DNA of 43,340 nt, from the IMG/VR virus record IMGVR_UViG_3300045988_176239; one strand, written 5' to 3'. Under the pieces are notes generated by a model. It made no database searches, was not told where the DNA came from, and worked only from the letters and a program-made list of their open reading frames with translations. The DNA is from a virus. Position numbers and translations under genes: made by a program. Below are positions 56 through 43,340 of the stretch, piece after piece (position 1 is the stretch's first letter; each line of letters starts with the position of its first letter).

Positions 56-282
56 AACACCACAGACACACACACTGCACCACACACCACACACCCGGCA
101 AGACACAGCACACGACACGACAGCAGCACCGATGAGTACCACACCGGGGCGAGTGAGACACGGACCACACGCACCGGGCCGGGCGGGACAACAGCACACG
201 CCACCGCCATTCAACAGCAGCACACAGCAGAGGATGGACACCATCCACTCTCACACTGTTCACGTTCACACAACCAACAAAC

Positions 283-407
283 GATCATGATCAACGTGAT
301 CAACAATCATCGTTCAATGATTGATCAATGAACAATGAACAATGAACGAACATGATGATGATCAATGATCATCATGATGATGAACATGATGAACATGATG
401 ATGATCA
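283..407. repeat. Cluster of 7 GATC sites (6 as the TGATCA palindrome) in an AT-rich ATG/ATC low-complexity island
   Basis: GATC at 283, 289, 298, 323, 360, 367 and 403. It is followed (420-470) by several ATGCAT/GCATGC palindromes. Confidence 0.8.
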
Positions 408-791
408 TGTGATGATGACGTGATGCATGACATGCATACCAATACCATGCACCATGCATGGTGCCAACGCATGCCACAAGGCAACACGCAACGTACAACG
501 CACAAACGCACAAAAATGCACAAAAACAAAAGAAATGTTACAAAAACATGCAAAAACATTCAAAAGCGTGAAACAACAATGGTGTTCAAAAAAACCATGG
601 CAACAAAACAAGACGAACGGAAAGGGGGCCCCAACACACTAAGGGATCCCTTAAAGTGGGACCCGCGTCACAAAACAAGACAGGGAACACAACAAAACGA
701 GACGCACACCACACAATTTATGTGATGGGGGCCACTCCCCCTCCCCCATCCGGCCGCGAACACCCCGAAGGTCTGCCCATCCCTCCCTGCT

Positions 792-39535: not shown

Positions 39536-39934
39536 GATGTCTTCTCTTTCTCCGTGGTGGTCTTGGTTGTGCTGTGGACCATCTGCCCTGTCGGACTGCT
39601 GTCCTGCCTCCCGATGGCTTTAACTCTAGGGGCCCGTCGCCCCGCCGTCCACCCCACCCGGGTGAGACGTCCATCACACTCTGAGGTGTTGGTTCCCGAC
39701 ACATCAGCCCACCACACCAGAACACCACGAAAGGCGGACGGCAGTGGACTACACATGGTCGCGTCCTCCGCCCGTGCGAGCACGAAACAGAGGACGCAAT
39801 ACCAGTCCGGCAGAAAAGACGCTCCGAGCCTCAAAGAGCGAACACCCCAACTCACACATACTGACCCACCCCAACCGACCTTTCGCGCCGAGTGGATGGG
39901 TTGGTATGTCGCCGCCGTCCTCTACCACACCGTC

Positions 39935-40372
39935 TCATATGAGGTCAATGTCGTTCTCCTCCAACACGCCCCCAACCTCCTCAACATTATCCACATTCAC
40001 GCCAGCAACACTAATGTCGCACTCGAGCTCACCGTCACCGTTCTCAATGATTTCGAGCTCAAGCGAGACACGGTTCAACCCAAAAACGATTTCCCTCCCC
40101 AATAGTGCAACGGGGTGCACATCCACATATCCGACAGTACGAAGAACGTCGAGGGCACGGAACATCAGGTCGGCGCCGCGCCCGACAGCGGCGAGCAGTG
40201 CCGTCAAATGCTCGGGCGTTCCCCTTTTATCGGCGACGCTTATCGTGTAGTTCGTGCCGTCCATGTGCTCGATCATAATTGCGAACCGGGCCGGGGAATC
40301 GGCCGACGAATCCGTGGCCCGGCGCACGTCCATGTGTCGGACGAGCCTTGCCTCGTCCAGCGTGTTGCCCAT
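39935..40372 (-). CDS. Hypothetical protein; first gene of the long leftward operon
   Basis: 145 aa from ATG 40372 with a GAAGAGAGAGAGGA leader, downstream of a promoter candidate. Confidence 0.55.
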   Translation of the reverse strand: MGNTLDEARLVRHMDVRRATDSSADSPARFAIMIEHMDGTNYTISVADKRGTPEHLTALLAAVGRGADLMFRALDVLRTVGYVDVHPVALLGREIVFGLNRVSLELEIIENGDGELECDISVAGVNVDNVEEVGGVLEENDIDLI

Positions 40373-40416
40373 TTGTGCCCGTCCTCTCTCTCTTCGCGTG
40401 CCAGCCCTCACTGGCA

Positions 40417-40441
40417 TGGTGTGTCCACTGTAGAAGGGCGG
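40417..40441. repeat. 25-bp direct repeat tggtgtgtccactgtagaagggcgg (copy A)
   Basis: Identical to 41391-41415. It is preceded by the small hairpin tgccag/ctggca (40399-40416). Confidence 0.9.
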
Positions 40442-40457
40442 GGGAGGGTGCTGTCAA
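40427..40457 (-). promoter_or_regulatory. Candidate promoter of the leftward operon: TTGACA-N19-TACAGT
   Basis: Minus-strand TTGACA at 40457-40452 and TACAGT at 40432-40427. The -10 lies inside 25-bp repeat copy A. Confidence 0.45.
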
Positions 40458-40539
40458 CCCCCAGCGTACGTGACTCGTATCTCAGTGGACTCCGGGAACG
40501 CCCGCAGTGCTTACGCCACTGCCCCGCCCGTGTCATCCC

Positions 40540-40866
40540 ATGAGCATGGATATATCAACCCTTCTGTACGTCTCACCCGCCTCCGTGCCTGAAACCATGA
40601 CGGCCCTCACGCTCCGCTACGTCGAAGATCGCGAGGAAGTCGCCGACCGATACTTGCGCGCAACGCTGCGATCCTTCATGTTCGACCTCTACCCCCACGA
40701 AGCGTTCGAGCTGATCCGCACCTTCGCCACCGAGACCACGGACGACATCCAAGACCTCGAGGGTGAGGAGGTGGCGAGCCGGATCAACGTCGCGCTGCGG
40801 CGGCTGATCGACCGCGCCGAGGCCGATGAAGCCTTCATGGCCGAGCTGACCGAGTTGGCCTACTGA
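40540..40866 (+). CDS. Small acidic hypothetical protein
   Basis: 108 aa from ATG 40540 (alternatives are GTG 40507 and ATG 40546). It is helical and Asp/Glu-rich. Confidence 0.5.
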   Translation: MSMDISTLLYVSPASVPETMTALTLRYVEDREEVADRYLRATLRSFMFDLYPHEAFELIRTFATETTDDIQDLEGEEVASRINVALRRLIDRAEADEAFMAELTELAY

Positions 40867-40989
40867 GCCGTCCGTCCCACCCGCACAATGCGACAGAGGC
40901 CCCCCCCGGGGGGGTCTTGCGTTAGCCAAGCCCCAAGGAGCATTCTTATATCAACAGAACAACCCAACCGACCGGGAAGGAAAGAGAGA

Positions 40990-41331
40990 ATGAGCACCGC
41001 CATCTACCGCACTGAGGACCCCGCCCTCGAGACCATCGAGTTCGGTACCGTCTACCATGTTCACGACTCGCGCACCGGCGCCTCGTGGGTCCTCTACGAG
41101 AGCGACGATTGCGGTGTCAGCTCCATTGAGCCGCTGGACGTCCCTGATGGATGGGACGACGCCTACGAGTATGCGACGGTTGACACGCGCATTTGGTCTC
41201 GCATCGCCGATCTCGCCAGCGACGCCTTCCTGGCCAGCGCCGACCTCGAGGTCACTATCGTTCCCGTCCTCGAAGAGGGGGCGGACCCCAGGTCGCGCGC
41301 TCTGCTGTACCGCTTCGTTTGGCTCTTCTGA
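40990..41331 (+). CDS. Small acidic hypothetical protein
   Basis: 113 aa from ATG 40990 with a GGAAGGAAAGAGAGA RBS. It is very Asp/Glu-rich. Confidence 0.55.
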   Translation: MSTAIYRTEDPALETIEFGTVYHVHDSRTGASWVLYESDDCGVSSIEPLDVPDGWDDAYEYATVDTRIWSRIADLASDAFLASADLEVTIVPVLEEGADPRSRALLYRFVWLF

Positions 41332-41346
41332 CACAACTGGTCTGAG

Positions 41347-41389
41347 GACGACGGGGCCCTACCTTCGACGAGGGTGGGGCCCCGTCGTC
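41347..41389 (+). terminator. 13-bp GC-rich hairpin after the rightward two-gene cassette
   Basis: gacgacggggccc (41347-41359) pairs with gggccccgtcgtc (41377-41389). Confidence 0.6.
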
Positions 41390-41390
41390 G

Positions 41391-41415
41391 TGGTGTGTCC
41401 ACTGTAGAAGGGCGG
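41391..41415. repeat. 25-bp direct repeat (copy B)
   Basis: Identical to 40417-40441. It immediately follows the hairpin at 41347-41389. Confidence 0.9.
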
Positions 41416-41468
41416 TGTGTGATGGGGGCGAGCGGTGCCGGTCCTGCACACCAATCTCTCACAGTTTC

Positions 41469-41503
41469 CGTTAACCTTCCGTTCATCTCGTTAACCTTTC
41501 GTT
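41469..41503. promoter_or_regulatory. Helically phased CGTT / CGTTAACCTT repeats (iteron-like)
   Basis: cgttaacctt at 41469-41478 and 41489-41498 (20-bp period). CGTT recurs at 41469, 41480, 41489 and 41500. Confidence 0.5.
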
Positions 41504-41746
41504 TACTTTCTACGCATGTGGGTTGTTTGCTAGCAACCTGGGTTCTAGGGTAAAAACACCCGTTTGTGTTACTACAATGTTGGTGCGTGTCGTCACACTT
41601 TCTGTCCTTGTAGCAAGAGATTGTGTCAGTGGCTTCCGCGTGATTGCAACGTTTAGTCCTTGTTTGCTGTTGCTTGTTGGCAGTGTTTGTTGTGGTGACT
41701 TTGGTCCCGTATGCTACACTCGAGTAGACGAATCGTCGAAGACGAT

Positions 41747-41808
41747 CTGCGGCGCAGCCGCTGAGGAGCCCTAGCGACGCAAGCGAGCGTCGGCGCCGCA
41801 GGGTGTTT
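41747..41808 (+). terminator. Compound GC-rich stem-loop followed by a T-run
   Basis: ctgcggcgc (41747-41755) pairs with gcgccgcag (41793-41801), with an inner cgacgc/gcgtcg pairing, followed by ggtgtttt. Confidence 0.5.
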
Positions 41809-41864
41809 TCGAAGAGCTCGCCACTGTGTTGGGCCCAACCTATACTCTTAAAAGAGTACTAGAA

Positions 41865-41898
41865 TTAGACACTGTCTACCTGTGTTAGACACTGTCTA
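41865..41898. promoter_or_regulatory. Two copies of the 14-bp near-palindrome TTAGACACTGTCTA spaced 20 bp (operator-like), downstream of a TATACT -10-like hexamer (41841-41846)
   Basis: Copies at 41865-41878 and 41885-41898. With the flanking aa/tt they form a larger near-palindrome. Confidence 0.6.
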
Positions 41899-42093
41899 AT
41901 TAGGAAACATGTGTTATGACGTAATTGAGAGTGCACAGTGTTCAAAGAAGAATACTGTGATCGTTAACAACGAACAGTGTGTGGCGTGAACAACAATACC
42001 ATCATGGTGGTATGCAATAAACATTGCGCATGCAAAAACACGCACACACCCACCAAATAAACAAACCCAAAACACAAAGGCGCGTGTTGTGCT

Positions 42094-42126
42094 ACGTGCG
42101 TGCTCGCAAAGCTGCGCGCGCACTAC
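42094..42126. repeat. 33-bp direct repeat acgtgcgtgctcgcaaagctgcgcgcgcactac (copy 1), itself an imperfect GC-rich hairpin
   Basis: Identical to 42759-42791. gtgcgtgc can pair with gcgcgcac around the caaag loop region. Confidence 0.9.
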
Positions 42127-42303
42127 ACAACACACGCCAACCCACAAACAAAGAAAAACGAGAAGAGAAAAGACAAAGACAGGAACAAGAGAGTAGCGTT
42201 AGACGGTGGAGGCGCTCGTCTCGCTGACGCTGCGACGCGCCACCACCTAACACAAACAAAAAAAACAAAGACAAAAAGAAAAGAACAAAAAGAAGAAAAC
42301 ACG

Positions 42304-42648
42304 ATGAGCAGAACAAGCACACGCGAACACAAACAATTCAGAAAACAAGTACTCGCCCGAGCACAACAAATGGGCATCACACACTGCCCAGCATGCGGAA
42401 CCAAACTCCAATACAACAACAACGGACAACGCAAACCCAACTCAGCTGAAGCAGACCACATAATCCCAGCCTCACTAGGCGGAACCAACCACCCAGACAA
42501 CGGCAGAGTCCTCTGCGCCAAATGCAACAGCAGACGAGGCAACGGACGAGGAGGCAAAGGAAGAGCACGCCACTACCAGAAAAACGAGAACGAAAGAGAC
42601 AGACTCCCTATCGCTGTCATGCCAACACAACACAGTGACACATGGTAA
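42304..42648 (+). CDS. HNH endonuclease (packaging-associated type)
   Basis: 114 aa from ATG 42304 with CPACG...ADHIIPASLGGTNHPDNGRVLCAKCNSRRGN (HNH with two CxxC pairs). It lies one gene before terS/terL across the circular junction. Confidence 0.85.
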   Translation: MSRTSTREHKQFRKQVLARAQQMGITHCPACGTKLQYNNNGQRKPNSAEADHIIPASLGGTNHPDNGRVLCAKCNSRRGNGRGGKGRARHYQKNENERDRLPIAVMPTQHSDTW

Positions 42649-42758
42649 CCCCCCCGCCATTCCACACCAACAAGAAAAGCGGACAGTAAAGAAAAACAGT
42701 GGAGGAGAAGAGAAGAGAGAACAAGACAACAAGAAAGACGCAATGGTGTTCGGGGATA

Positions 42759-42791
42759 ACGTGCGTGCTCGCAAAGCTGCGCGCGCACTAC
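42759..42791. repeat. 33-bp direct repeat (copy 2)
   Basis: Identical to 42094-42126. Both copies are followed by about 20 nt of A/C-rich sequence and then a purine (aaagaaaag-type) tract. Confidence 0.9.
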
Positions 42792-43285
42792 CCCGAACAC
42801 CAACACAAAAGGAAAAAAAGAAAGAAGAAAAGAAAGAGAAGAATGGACTGCAACAAACACACCACCACCCACCGCCCTTCTGCCCGAACACAAACCACCA
42901 CCGACATTCCACAATGACACAACCCTGACATTAAAACACAACCCTAAACCAACAATGCTGTGACAGCAAACACAGTGAAGGACGGGGGCGACGCAAGGAG
43001 AACAGAGCGGGACACGGTTCCACCACCACACCTCCCCACCGCACTTCTCCACCCACAACAAACAACACAAAGGGGAAGCAAGACAACGCAAGGGGAACAG
43101 GACAACACAAAGGCGCCCAGCCCAAAGACGGGGGACGCCACAGCACACACCACCCCCGCCATTCAACACGGCCACCACACAAACAGAAGAGGGACGCCAA
43201 CATACAGACGGGGAGGACAACAACACTGCCGCCCTTCATTCACCATGCCACCCCACCCCGCAACACCACCCCACCATCCACAATG

Positions 43286-43340
43286 CCCCCACCCACTACC
43301 ATTGCAAGGGGGGAGTTACCGGAGGATACCCCACCACACA
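43286..43340. repeat. 55-bp terminal direct repeat (second copy)
   Basis: Identical to 1-55. Confidence 0.9.

What the first reader, a model, noticed from the sequence alone, without database searches (positions are those of the whole stretch)
40417..41415. 25-bp exact direct repeats bracket an opposite-strand two-gene cassette and carry the -10 of the leftward operon promoter
Seen: tggtgtgtccactgtagaagggcgg at 40417-40441 and 41391-41415, 974 bp apart. Each copy is immediately preceded by a hairpin. Between them lie the only two rightward genes of this region plus their terminator. On the minus strand copy A provides TACAGT, 19 nt downstream of a perfect TTGACA (40457-40452) that lies inside the cassette. 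Copy B has the same -10 but no -35.

Inference: the arrangement resembles a cassette inserted into the leader of the leftward operon with duplication of the target, creating a hybrid promoter at A. Transcription from B would be antisense to the cassette, a possible switch.
Basis: partly seen in the sequence, partly recalled or inferred. Interest (0 to 1): 0.65.

Follow-up and report, generated by a model that had tools for sequence, protein, structure and literature searches.

The report
Early phage promoter and its converted twin
The 25-bp repeat is real, but it is not an insertion scar: one copy is the core of this oral actinobacterial phage's early leftward promoter, and the other is an old related sequence box made identical to it by a short local copying event, with a swappable two-gene accessory island between them.

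Summary
The 25-mer occurs exactly twice (40417-40441, 41391-41415), and this also holds in 12 independent assemblies of this phage clade.

- **Copy A is a promoter.** It is the -10/spacer of a sigma-70-type promoter, TTGACA-N19-TACAGT on the minus strand, conserved in 38 related genomes.
- **The -35 is not cassette DNA.** A cassette-free relative (L058) keeps the -35 and both boxes, A-like and B-like, 59 bp apart. The repeat is therefore not a target-site duplication and the promoter is not a hybrid.
- **The island sits upstream of the promoter, not in its leader.** It begins after 40485. Its content varies across the family: C1+C2, C1 only, C2 only, or none.
- **A and B are old paralogues.** They share the box GAAGRGCGGTG in nearly every relative, but usually match at only 10-22 of 25 positions. 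B keeps a TANNNT -10 only in this clade and one other genome.
- **Short-patch exchange explains the identity.** In this clade copy A has two alleles differing at two perfectly linked sites (40426, 40430), and one allele equals B.
- **The box belongs to a wider motif family.** It is a member of a conserved, oriented 9-mer family (CCGCCMTTC) of unknown function.

Modest interest.

The parts
40417..40441 (-). Copy A of the 25-mer. It spans the start region, the -10 (TACAGT, 40432-40427) and the -10-proximal 9 nt of the spacer (box CCGCCCTTC, 40441-40433) of the early leftward promoter P_L.
   Evidence: The family alignment shows the -10 as TANNNT in 36/38 genomes and the box conserved inside an otherwise variable spacer.
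40452..40457 (-). -35 hexamer TTGACA of P_L. The spacer is 19 nt here and 17-19 nt in relatives.
   Evidence: TTGAC(A/G) or a close variant in all 38 genomes (two have TTGATG). Present in the cassette-free relatives L058 and L056.
40399..40416 (-). Stem-loop at the 5' end of the predicted P_L transcript (TGCCAG...CTGGCA).
   Evidence: A hairpin occupies the same place in nearly all relatives, with different stem sequences such as CACCGA/TCGGTG and GCCGAC/GTCGGC.
39935..40375 (-). L1, the first gene of the leftward early/replication operon (146 aa, no known family).
   Evidence: Downstream genes include a DUF3987 primase/helicase, a helicase, an exonuclease and Sak4.
40462..40485 (+). Element U (cagcgtacgtgactcgtatctcag), conserved upstream flank of P_L. 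The accessory island starts right after it.
   Evidence: In L058 this element is followed directly by the B box. In many relatives an imperfect second copy (U') follows the island.
40540..40866 (+). C1, an accessory gene (108 aa, acidic, no known family). A G/C hairpin follows at about 40896-40917.
   Evidence: Absent in 11 of 39 loci. In L056 a C1-like match (57% identity) lies on the leftward strand beyond L1.
40990..41331 (+). C2, an accessory gene (113 aa, acidic, no known family).
   Evidence: Absent in 11 of 39 loci. Homologues sit at the ends of unrelated ~19-kb contigs, in L040 as the first gene behind a TATGAT -10.
41347..41389 (.). Long G+C-rich hairpin, the terminator of the island. 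It folds on both strands.
   Evidence: (I11) and 37: -44.6 kcal/mol on + and -35.1 on -, z = -7.2 and -6.1.
41391..41415 (-). Copy B of the 25-mer. Its right part belongs to the family-wide B box GAAGGGCGGTGTGTGATGG (41407-41425). Its left part (41391-41406) is the A-like patch.
   Evidence: The B box is an island of conservation while the left part is variable across the family.

Best explanation
The window is a complete ~43.3-kb genome of an apparently lytic siphovirus from the human mouth, most likely infecting an actinobacterium.

**Copy A** is the core of the early leftward promoter P_L, a housekeeping sigma-type promoter. Its transcript starts with a small stem-loop and runs into L1 and the replication genes.

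**Copy B** is not produced by insertion. A and B are two old, related boxes, both present in the ancestral-type regulatory region (GTCTAC..TA-GAAGRGCGGTG at A, ..GAAGGGCGGTGTGTGATGG at B). In a cassette-free relative they lie 59 bp apart.

**The island.** The segment between element U and the B box is a hot spot where accessory early genes with their own terminator (C1, C2) have been gained, swapped and lost by recombination. In many relatives this left imperfect duplications of U, or of the B box, on both sides.

**The exact identity.** In this clade a short-patch gene conversion between A and B made 25 bp identical. The direction is probably B to A for the last event, after an earlier A-to-B transfer.

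**Inferred function.** The shared box is probably a protein-binding site that controls P_L. B probably has little or no promoter activity of its own.

Shown: the anatomy, the conservation, the empty site, and the two-allele state at A. Inferred: promoter activity, conversion as the mechanism, and the binding-site role.
For: - **Promoter.** The -35, the -10 and the 17-19 nt spacing are conserved in 38 genomes whose spacer is otherwise variable. A 5' hairpin is kept with different stem sequences.
- **Empty site.** L058 reads ...ctactgtaGAAGAGCGGtgggggctgcTGTCAAcccccagtgcgtgtgagctgtgtctcag|atggttGAAGGGCGGtgggcgatgggg..., with no C1 or C2.
- **L056** is a deletion derivative. It keeps the start of the C1 leader and the 3' arm of the terminator.
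- **Island content varies** in 39 loci: both genes 17, C2 only 10, C1 only 10, none 2. C2 also occurs in unrelated 19-kb contigs.
- **Flanking imperfect repeats** of U, or of the box, reach up to about 40 nt in L006, L021, L033, L054 and L078.
- **A/B identity** is 10-22 of 25 in other genomes and 25/25 only here. There is no family-wide concerted evolution: own 14.9 versus other 15.0, p = 0.79.
- **Within the clade** (12 contigs, 98.3-99.9% identical), A is either CCACTGTA (7, equal to B) or CTACTATA (5). Sites 40426 and 40430 are perfectly linked, while sites 20-50 nt away are not. L105 differs from W by only these two sites within about 200 nt on the left and 110 nt on the right.
- **The B box and the A box** are islands of conservation.
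- **Host clue.** The portal is closest to Actinomyces phage LC001 (55.6%), and all other listed named hits are actinobacterial phages. The samples are human oral metagenomes.
Against: - No transcription data exist, so promoter use at A and silence at B are inferred.
- The 19-nt spacer at A is longer than optimal.
- The direction of conversion is uncertain. The clade contigs were retrieved through an identical C2 protein, which biases B towards invariance. The CTACTATA allele could instead have been imported from another phage lineage by a short recombination patch.
- L058 could be a precise deletion between the U repeats rather than the ancestral state. That would still leave both boxes in the empty site.
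- No DNA-binding protein was found that could read the box.
- No sigma-70-type promoter was found for the island itself.
Confidence: 0.65

Rival explanations
1. Target-site duplication: a mobile two-gene cassette inserted into the operon leader, duplicated 25 bp of target and brought in the -35, creating a hybrid promoter.
For: Exact direct repeats flank an opposite-strand module that has its own terminator. The module is variable among relatives.
Against: - The cassette-free L058 has both boxes and the -35.
- The -35 is conserved in all relatives regardless of island content.
- The other 26 distinct cassette-bearing relatives compared lack an exact repeat.
- The left junctions vary, after U in most genomes and after an extra box in L011, L021, L033 and L051.
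- There is no transposase or recombinase, and no terminal inverted repeats.
Confidence: 0.03
2. Both copies are working promoters in this clade. B, a -10-only promoter, makes a leftward RNA antisense to C2/C1 that tunes or switches the island's expression.
For: B has the same TACAGT and start region as A. Many actinobacterial promoters need only a -10 (own knowledge of Mycobacterium transcription start-site maps). The host is probably an actinobacterium.
Against: - The B position has TANNNT only in this clade and in L030, among 37 relatives.
- There is no -35 and no TGN extension.
- The family keeps a near-perfect -35 at A, which suggests the host polymerase uses one.
- A transcript from B would enter a 20-bp G+C hairpin about 7 nt after its start.
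Confidence: 0.12
3. The identity is kept by selection, not conversion. A and B are operators of one regulator that reads the box CACCGCCMTTCNACA. The regulator acts on P_L directly at A, and through cooperative binding or looping at B and the array beyond HNH.
For: - CCGCCMTTC occurs 13 times in the window against 1.1 expected.
- 2-8 same-strand copies (4 or more in 25 of 27 genomes) lie in the 1 kb after HNH in the family genomes that extend that far (124 copies in 27 genomes), as islands of conservation.
- The A and B boxes are conserved inside variable surroundings.
Against: - Only the 9-11 nt core is shared family-wide. The other 14-16 nt of the 25-mer are not conserved at B.
- L056 lacks the B box altogether.
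- No regulator gene was identified.
- This reading explains the box but not the exact 25-nt identity, so it complements the best explanation rather than replacing it.
Confidence: 0.3
4. Assembly artefact: the repeat comes from a chimeric or collapsed metagenome assembly.
For: The window is a metagenome assembly with a 55-bp terminal overlap.
Against: The same structure appears in 12 contigs from different samples and assemblers (IMG/VR, ENA, Logan), each with its own polymorphisms around it.
Confidence: 0.01

Closest known systems
Morons / accessory gene islands of tailed phages (Juhala et al. 2000; Hendrix et al. 2000; cited from own knowledge)
   Same: A small module with its own terminator sits between conserved modules in the opposite orientation. 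It is present, absent or swapped among close relatives, and one gene (C2) is shared with unrelated phages.
   Different: No recognisable promoter of its own was found. It sits in the upstream region of the early promoter. In many relatives it is flanked by imperfect duplications of the neighbouring regulatory DNA.
Conserved boundary (linker) sequences at module junctions of lambdoid phages (Susskind and Botstein 1978; Clark et al. 2001; own knowledge)
   Same: Short conserved sequences on both sides of an exchangeable module could guide homologous exchange.
   Different: Here the flanking sequences are paralogues of each other within one genome and overlap a promoter. Their role in exchange is inferred, not shown.
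Short-patch gene conversion between dispersed repeats (concerted evolution, as for duplicated bacterial genes such as tufA/tufB; own knowledge)
   Same: Two linked substitutions at one copy make it identical to its paralogue, in an otherwise unchanged background.
   Different: The tract is very short (25 bp or less of homology). Family-wide there is no concerted evolution. The phage encodes its own Sak4-type annealing protein and an exonuclease, which might allow such short homologies.
Stoperators of cluster A mycobacteriophages (Brown et al. 1997; own knowledge)
   Same: A short asymmetric motif is repeated many times, its orientation follows the local direction of transcription, and one copy overlaps the early leftward promoter.
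   Different: No repressor or integrase gene was seen. The copies cluster in about 3 kb of non-coding DNA instead of being spread over the genome. Binding is untested and the sequence is unrelated.
Target-site duplications of insertion sequences and mycobacteriophage mobile elements (MPME)
   Same: Direct repeats flank an inserted segment.
   Different: There is no transposase and there are no inverted ends. The empty site holds both copies. A 25-bp duplication would be unusually long.

Membership tests
Sigma-70/SigA-type promoter (copy A) | -35 and -10 hexamers close to consensus with 16-19 nt spacing, upstream of the first gene of an operon. | tested here: met
   TTGACA-19-TACAGT lies 52 nt upstream of the L1 start codon. 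Both hexamers are conserved in 36-38 of 38 relatives, with a 17-19 nt spacer.
Sigma-70/SigA-type promoter (copy A) | A mapped transcription start. | not testable with these tools
   No transcript data are available.
Sigma-70/SigA-type promoter (copy B) | -35 hexamer, and conservation of the -10 among relatives. | tested here: not met
   GCCCCC lies at the -35 position. Outside this clade, the -10 equivalent is TANNNT in only one relative (L030).
Target-site duplication of a mobile element | The empty site in relatives carries a single copy of the repeat. | tested here: not met
   L058 has both an A and a B box 59 bp apart. L056, with one box, still holds island remnants.
Target-site duplication of a mobile element | A transposase or recombinase and defined element ends (inverted repeats). 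| tested here: not met
   C1 and C2 match no Pfam or PHROG family. No inverted repeats lie at the island ends. The left junction differs among relatives.
Moron / accessory gene island | Presence or absence polymorphism among otherwise syntenic relatives. | tested here: met
   Of 39 loci, 17 have both genes, 10 have C2 only, 10 have C1 only and 2 have none.
Moron / accessory gene island | Own terminator. | tested here: met
   Hairpin 41347-41389, z = -7.2, conserved after C2 in relatives.
Moron / accessory gene island | Own promoter. | tested here: inconclusive
   No sigma-70-like site lies upstream of C1 or C2, and no TANNNT was seen by eye in 40442-40539. C2 in the 19-kb contig L040 does follow a TATGAT -10.
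Gene conversion between paralogous repeats | Linked multi-site change at one copy that matches the other copy, with flanks unchanged. | tested here: met
   Sites 40426 and 40430 co-vary perfectly in 12 contigs. The C/G allele equals B. L105 differs from W only at these two sites between 40217 and 40538.
Operator / stoperator-like repeated binding site | Over-represented short motif with conserved copies in regulatory DNA. | tested here: met
   13 copies against 1.1 expected. 124 copies in 27 genomes, as conserved islands.
Operator / stoperator-like repeated binding site | A cognate DNA-binding protein, and demonstrated binding. | tested here: inconclusive
   No DNA-binding domain was found in 30 window proteins scanned. 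Binding is not testable here.

The most novel reading that the evidence does not exclude
The boxes CACCGCCMTTCNACA are operators of an unidentified phage or host factor, comparable to stoperators. There are two inverted copies at and upstream of P_L and an oriented array beyond the HNH gene. Together they would couple early leftward transcription to the ultra-conserved packaging/late control region. In this clade, conversion has turned the upstream operator into a second, regulated -10-only promoter that makes RNA antisense to the accessory island.
Probability: 0.12. Interest if true: 0.55.

Novelty: new member of a known kind. Interest (0 to 1): 0.3.

Why it matters
- **A cautionary case.** An exact direct repeat around an opposite-strand cassette looks like an insertion scar. 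Comparison with relatives shows it is a promoter plus a paralogous box, homogenised by a very short conversion tract.
- **An annotated control region.** It gives an early promoter, a recombination hot spot for accessory early genes (candidate host-takeover or anti-defence genes), and a conserved motif family. These belong to a very abundant, uncultured family of human oral actinobacterial phages.
- **A tractable test system.** The two natural alleles of the -10 (TACAGT and TATAGT) and the empty-site relative can be used to test promoter and box function.

Tried and rejected
- **Nucleotide searches of cultured phages.** Near and distant searches against INPHARED found nothing. L2 protein found nothing either.
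- **Family searches.** Pfam and PHROGs gave no family for L1, L2, L3, C1 or C2. No integrase, repressor or DNA-binding domain appeared in 20 further proteins.
- **PDB sequence search.** C1 and C2 gave no hits, and L1 only chance-level hits.
- **C2 structure.** The AlphaFold2 model (pLDDT 72.8) has no significant PDB fold match. The best hits were weak GyrI-like domains at E >= 0.05. The function of C2 remains unknown.
- **RNA searches.** Rfam found only sub-threshold chance hits to the terminator hairpin, and there are no tRNAs.
- **Consensus promoter scan.** No site was found for the island and none at B. It also missed P_L because of the 19-nt spacer.
- **Family-wide concerted evolution of A and B.** Tested and rejected.
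- **DnaA-box resemblance of GTGTCCACT in the 25-mer.** Rejected, because the family consensus is GTGTCTACT.
- **Chi-like end-protection role for the 9-mer.** Considered and set aside, because A and B have the wrong orientation for the nearer genome end.
- **Site-specific (att-like) cassette.** Rejected, because there is no recombinase and the junctions vary.

Full report
**Observation.** The 25-mer TGGTGTGTCCACTGTAGAAGGGCGG is present exactly twice, at 40417-40441 and 41391-41415. No third copy exists even with three mismatches, and no shuffle reproduces a pair. Apart from the 55-bp overlap that marks a circular assembly (1-55 = 43286-43340), it is the only long exact dispersed repeat in the window. 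Each copy follows a hairpin on the + strand: a short one at 40399-40416 and a 20-bp G+C stem at 41347-41389. Between them lie two rightward ORFs, C1 (40540-40866) and C2 (40990-41331). On the minus strand, TACAGT (40432-40427) lies 19 nt downstream of TTGACA (40457-40452). Copy B has no -35.

**Context.** The window is a whole phage genome of about 43.3 kb and 55% G+C.
- Rightward structural genes run up to about 20.5 kb.
- A long leftward operon of replication genes ends at L1, the gene next to copy A. It includes a DUF3987 primase/helicase, a helicase, an exonuclease and a Sak4-like annealing protein.
- No integrase or repressor was seen.
- There is no nucleotide match among cultured phages. 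The portal is closest to Actinomyces phage LC001 of Schaalia odontolytica (55.6%), and the other listed named matches are all to actinobacterial phages.
- Near-identical contigs come from human oral metagenomes.

**Relatives.** IMG/VR holds dozens of syntenic relatives with 60-80% protein identity in this region. In 39 distinct loci that span L1 to the HNH gene, the content between them varies: C1+C2 in 17, C2 only in 10, C1 only in 10, and neither in 2. C2 homologues also sit at the ends of unrelated ~19-kb contigs; in the one read (L040) the gene comes first, behind a canonical TATGAT -10. C1 and C2 have no known family or fold. The cassette is therefore a variable accessory island, and the gene C2 moves between phage types.

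**Copy A is a promoter.** An alignment of the minus strand of 38 genomes shows three features:
- GTTGAC(A/G) in almost all.
- A spacer of 17-19 nt whose -35-proximal part varies.
- A -10 of the form TANNNT in 36 of 38 (TACAGT, TATAGT, TATGGT and others).

About 8-12 nt after the -10, almost every genome has a short hairpin built from different stem sequences. A purine-rich ribosome-binding region and the L1 start follow. This is a conserved housekeeping-type early promoter, P_L, whose transcript begins with a stem-loop.

**The empty site refutes the insertion-scar model.**
- L058 has no C1 or C2. It reads ...ctactgtaGAAGAGCGGtgggggctgcTGTCAAcccccagtgcgtgtgagctgtgtctcag|atggttGAAGGGCGGtgggcgatgggg... 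and then continues into the conserved non-coding DNA.
- The -35 therefore belongs to the resident promoter, not to the cassette.
- The island sits upstream of P_L. In the window it begins after 40485, the end of element U. It is not in the leader.
- The site without the island already has two boxes, A and B, 59 bp apart.
- L056 is the other island-free genome. It keeps the first 20 nt of the C1 leader and the 3' arm of the terminator, and it lacks the B box and most of the iterons. It is a deletion derivative, not an empty site.

**A and B are old paralogues.**
- Nearly every relative has GAAGRGCGG at A, inside the promoter spacer. Nearly every relative also has GAAGGGCGGTGTGTGATGG just after the island terminator.
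- The B box is an island of conservation between variable flanks.
- The left 16 nt of the 25-mer are not conserved at B. Most genomes have ..gtgcgtctcagNNNNNtt there, as in the empty site. About 16 have a more A-like version.
- A-B identity over the 25 positions is 10-22 in the other genomes. A genome's B is no closer to its own A than to other genomes' A (14.9 versus 15.0, p = 0.79).
- The -10 equivalent at B is TANNNT only in this clade and in L030. B is therefore not maintained as a promoter in the family.
- In many relatives the island is flanked instead by imperfect repeats of element U, or of the B box itself, up to about 40 nt long (L006, L021, L033, L054, L078). This is the trace of how modules were exchanged or lost there.

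**Why 25 of 25 here.** Ten further contigs carrying an identical C2, from other oral samples, are 98.3-99.9% identical to the window.
- All have the same B.
- Counting the window and L001 as well (12 contigs), copy A comes in two forms: CCACTGTA in 7 (equal to B) and CTACTATA in 5 (a common family form of A).
- The two differing sites, 40426 and 40430, are in perfect linkage. Polymorphic sites 20-50 nt away are not linked to them.
- L105 differs from the window by only these two sites across 40217-40538.
- This is the signature of a short-patch transfer between the two copies.
- The C/G form fits the A-like B versions of other genomes (..ctgt.), so the last event was probably B to A. That followed an older transfer that made B A-like.
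- The direction is not settled. The contigs were chosen through C2, which lies next to B, and the other allele could have come from another lineage.
- The phage's own annealing protein and exonuclease could support exchange at such short homology. This is an inference.

**What the box may be.**
- CCGCCMTTC, the box read on the transcribed sense, occurs 13 times in the window against 1.1 expected.
- The 27 relatives that extend far enough carry 2-8 copies (4 or more in all but two), all on the + strand, in the CA-rich kilobase after the HNH gene (124 copies). The extended consensus is CACCGCCATTCNACA. The copies stand out as conserved islands.
- A and B are the inverted members, on the side that is transcribed leftwards.
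- A conserved box inside a promoter spacer, with relatives elsewhere in the control region, suggests a protein-binding site. No binding protein was found, so this remains an inference.

**Verdict.**
- The repeat is real and non-random.
- The promoter assignment for copy A is well supported.
- The ideas of target duplication, hybrid promoter and insertion into the leader are refuted by the empty site and by the family.
- An antisense promoter at B is possible only as a clade-specific by-product and is untested.
- The arrangement is an ordinary kind of phage mosaicism, an accessory island at a regulatory hot spot, with a neat case of micro-conversion.
- The more intriguing items are the box family and the ultra-conserved non-coding DNA next to it. 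Both lie outside the finding.

Noticed in passing
window 41470-41960, 42090-42130, 42200-42260 and 230-850: These non-coding blocks are about 95-100% identical across 27-38 family genomes whose neighbouring proteins are only 60-80% identical. They may be packaging (cos), origin or late-control DNA of the family. No Rfam match was found in the part scanned (40300-43340).
   Followed up: partly
window 42654, 42872, 43156, 43229, 204 (+ strand); 40433 and 41407 (- strand): The 9-mer CCGCCMTTC (extended CACCGCCMTTCNACA) occurs 13 times against 1.1 expected. It forms a same-strand array after the HNH gene in the relatives that extend that far, and the copies are conserved islands. Its function is unknown.
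   Followed up: partly
window 41818-41900: A candidate rightward promoter, TCGCCA-17-TATACT, is followed by two copies of the palindrome TTAGACACTGTCTAA 20 bp apart. All of this is nearly invariant in the family. It looks like an operator-controlled promoter for the HNH/terminase side.
   Followed up: no
window 41462-41510: Four head-to-tail units with a 10-11 nt period (CCGTTAACCTT, CCGTTCATCT, CGTTAACCTTT, CGTTTACTTTC) lie just right of the B box. They are conserved in the family but largely deleted in L056.
   Followed up: no
window 42094-42126 and 42759-42791: The 33-nt element ACGTGCGTGCTCGCAAAGCTGCGCGCGCACTAC occurs before and after the HNH gene. Both copies are invariant in the family.
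   Followed up: no
window 42650-43340 and 1-260: The + strand here is extremely C+A-rich and G+T-poor (AT skew up to 0.64) between HNH and the terminase, with no credible ORF. Many related contigs end in this stretch, which suggests genome termini or an assembly-breaking repeat.
   Followed up: no
window 260-430: A dense cluster of short ATGATCA / TGAACA / ATGATGA repeats, almost invariant in relatives.
   Followed up: no
L039-L043 (e.g. L040 1-420): C2 homologues (57-61% identity) lie at the ends of ~19-kb viral contigs of a different genome type. In L040 the gene is the first in its row, behind a TATGAT -10.
   Followed up: partly
L056 (IMGVR_UViG_3300045988_172007), about 550-750 nt beyond the L1 start on the leftward strand: A C1-like match (57% identity) lies on the leftward strand beyond L1, while the usual island position is deleted. 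The same accessory gene can therefore sit in either transcription unit.
   Followed up: no
window 40896-40917: The C-run/G-run hairpin between C1 and C2 shows length polymorphism (a 2-nt indel at 40907-40908) among 99%-identical contigs.
   Followed up: no
window 39739-39927: Within the 99% clade this stretch, just downstream of L1, falls into two or three sharply different haplotypes in mosaic combinations. This points to frequent recombination among co-circulating strains.
   Followed up: no
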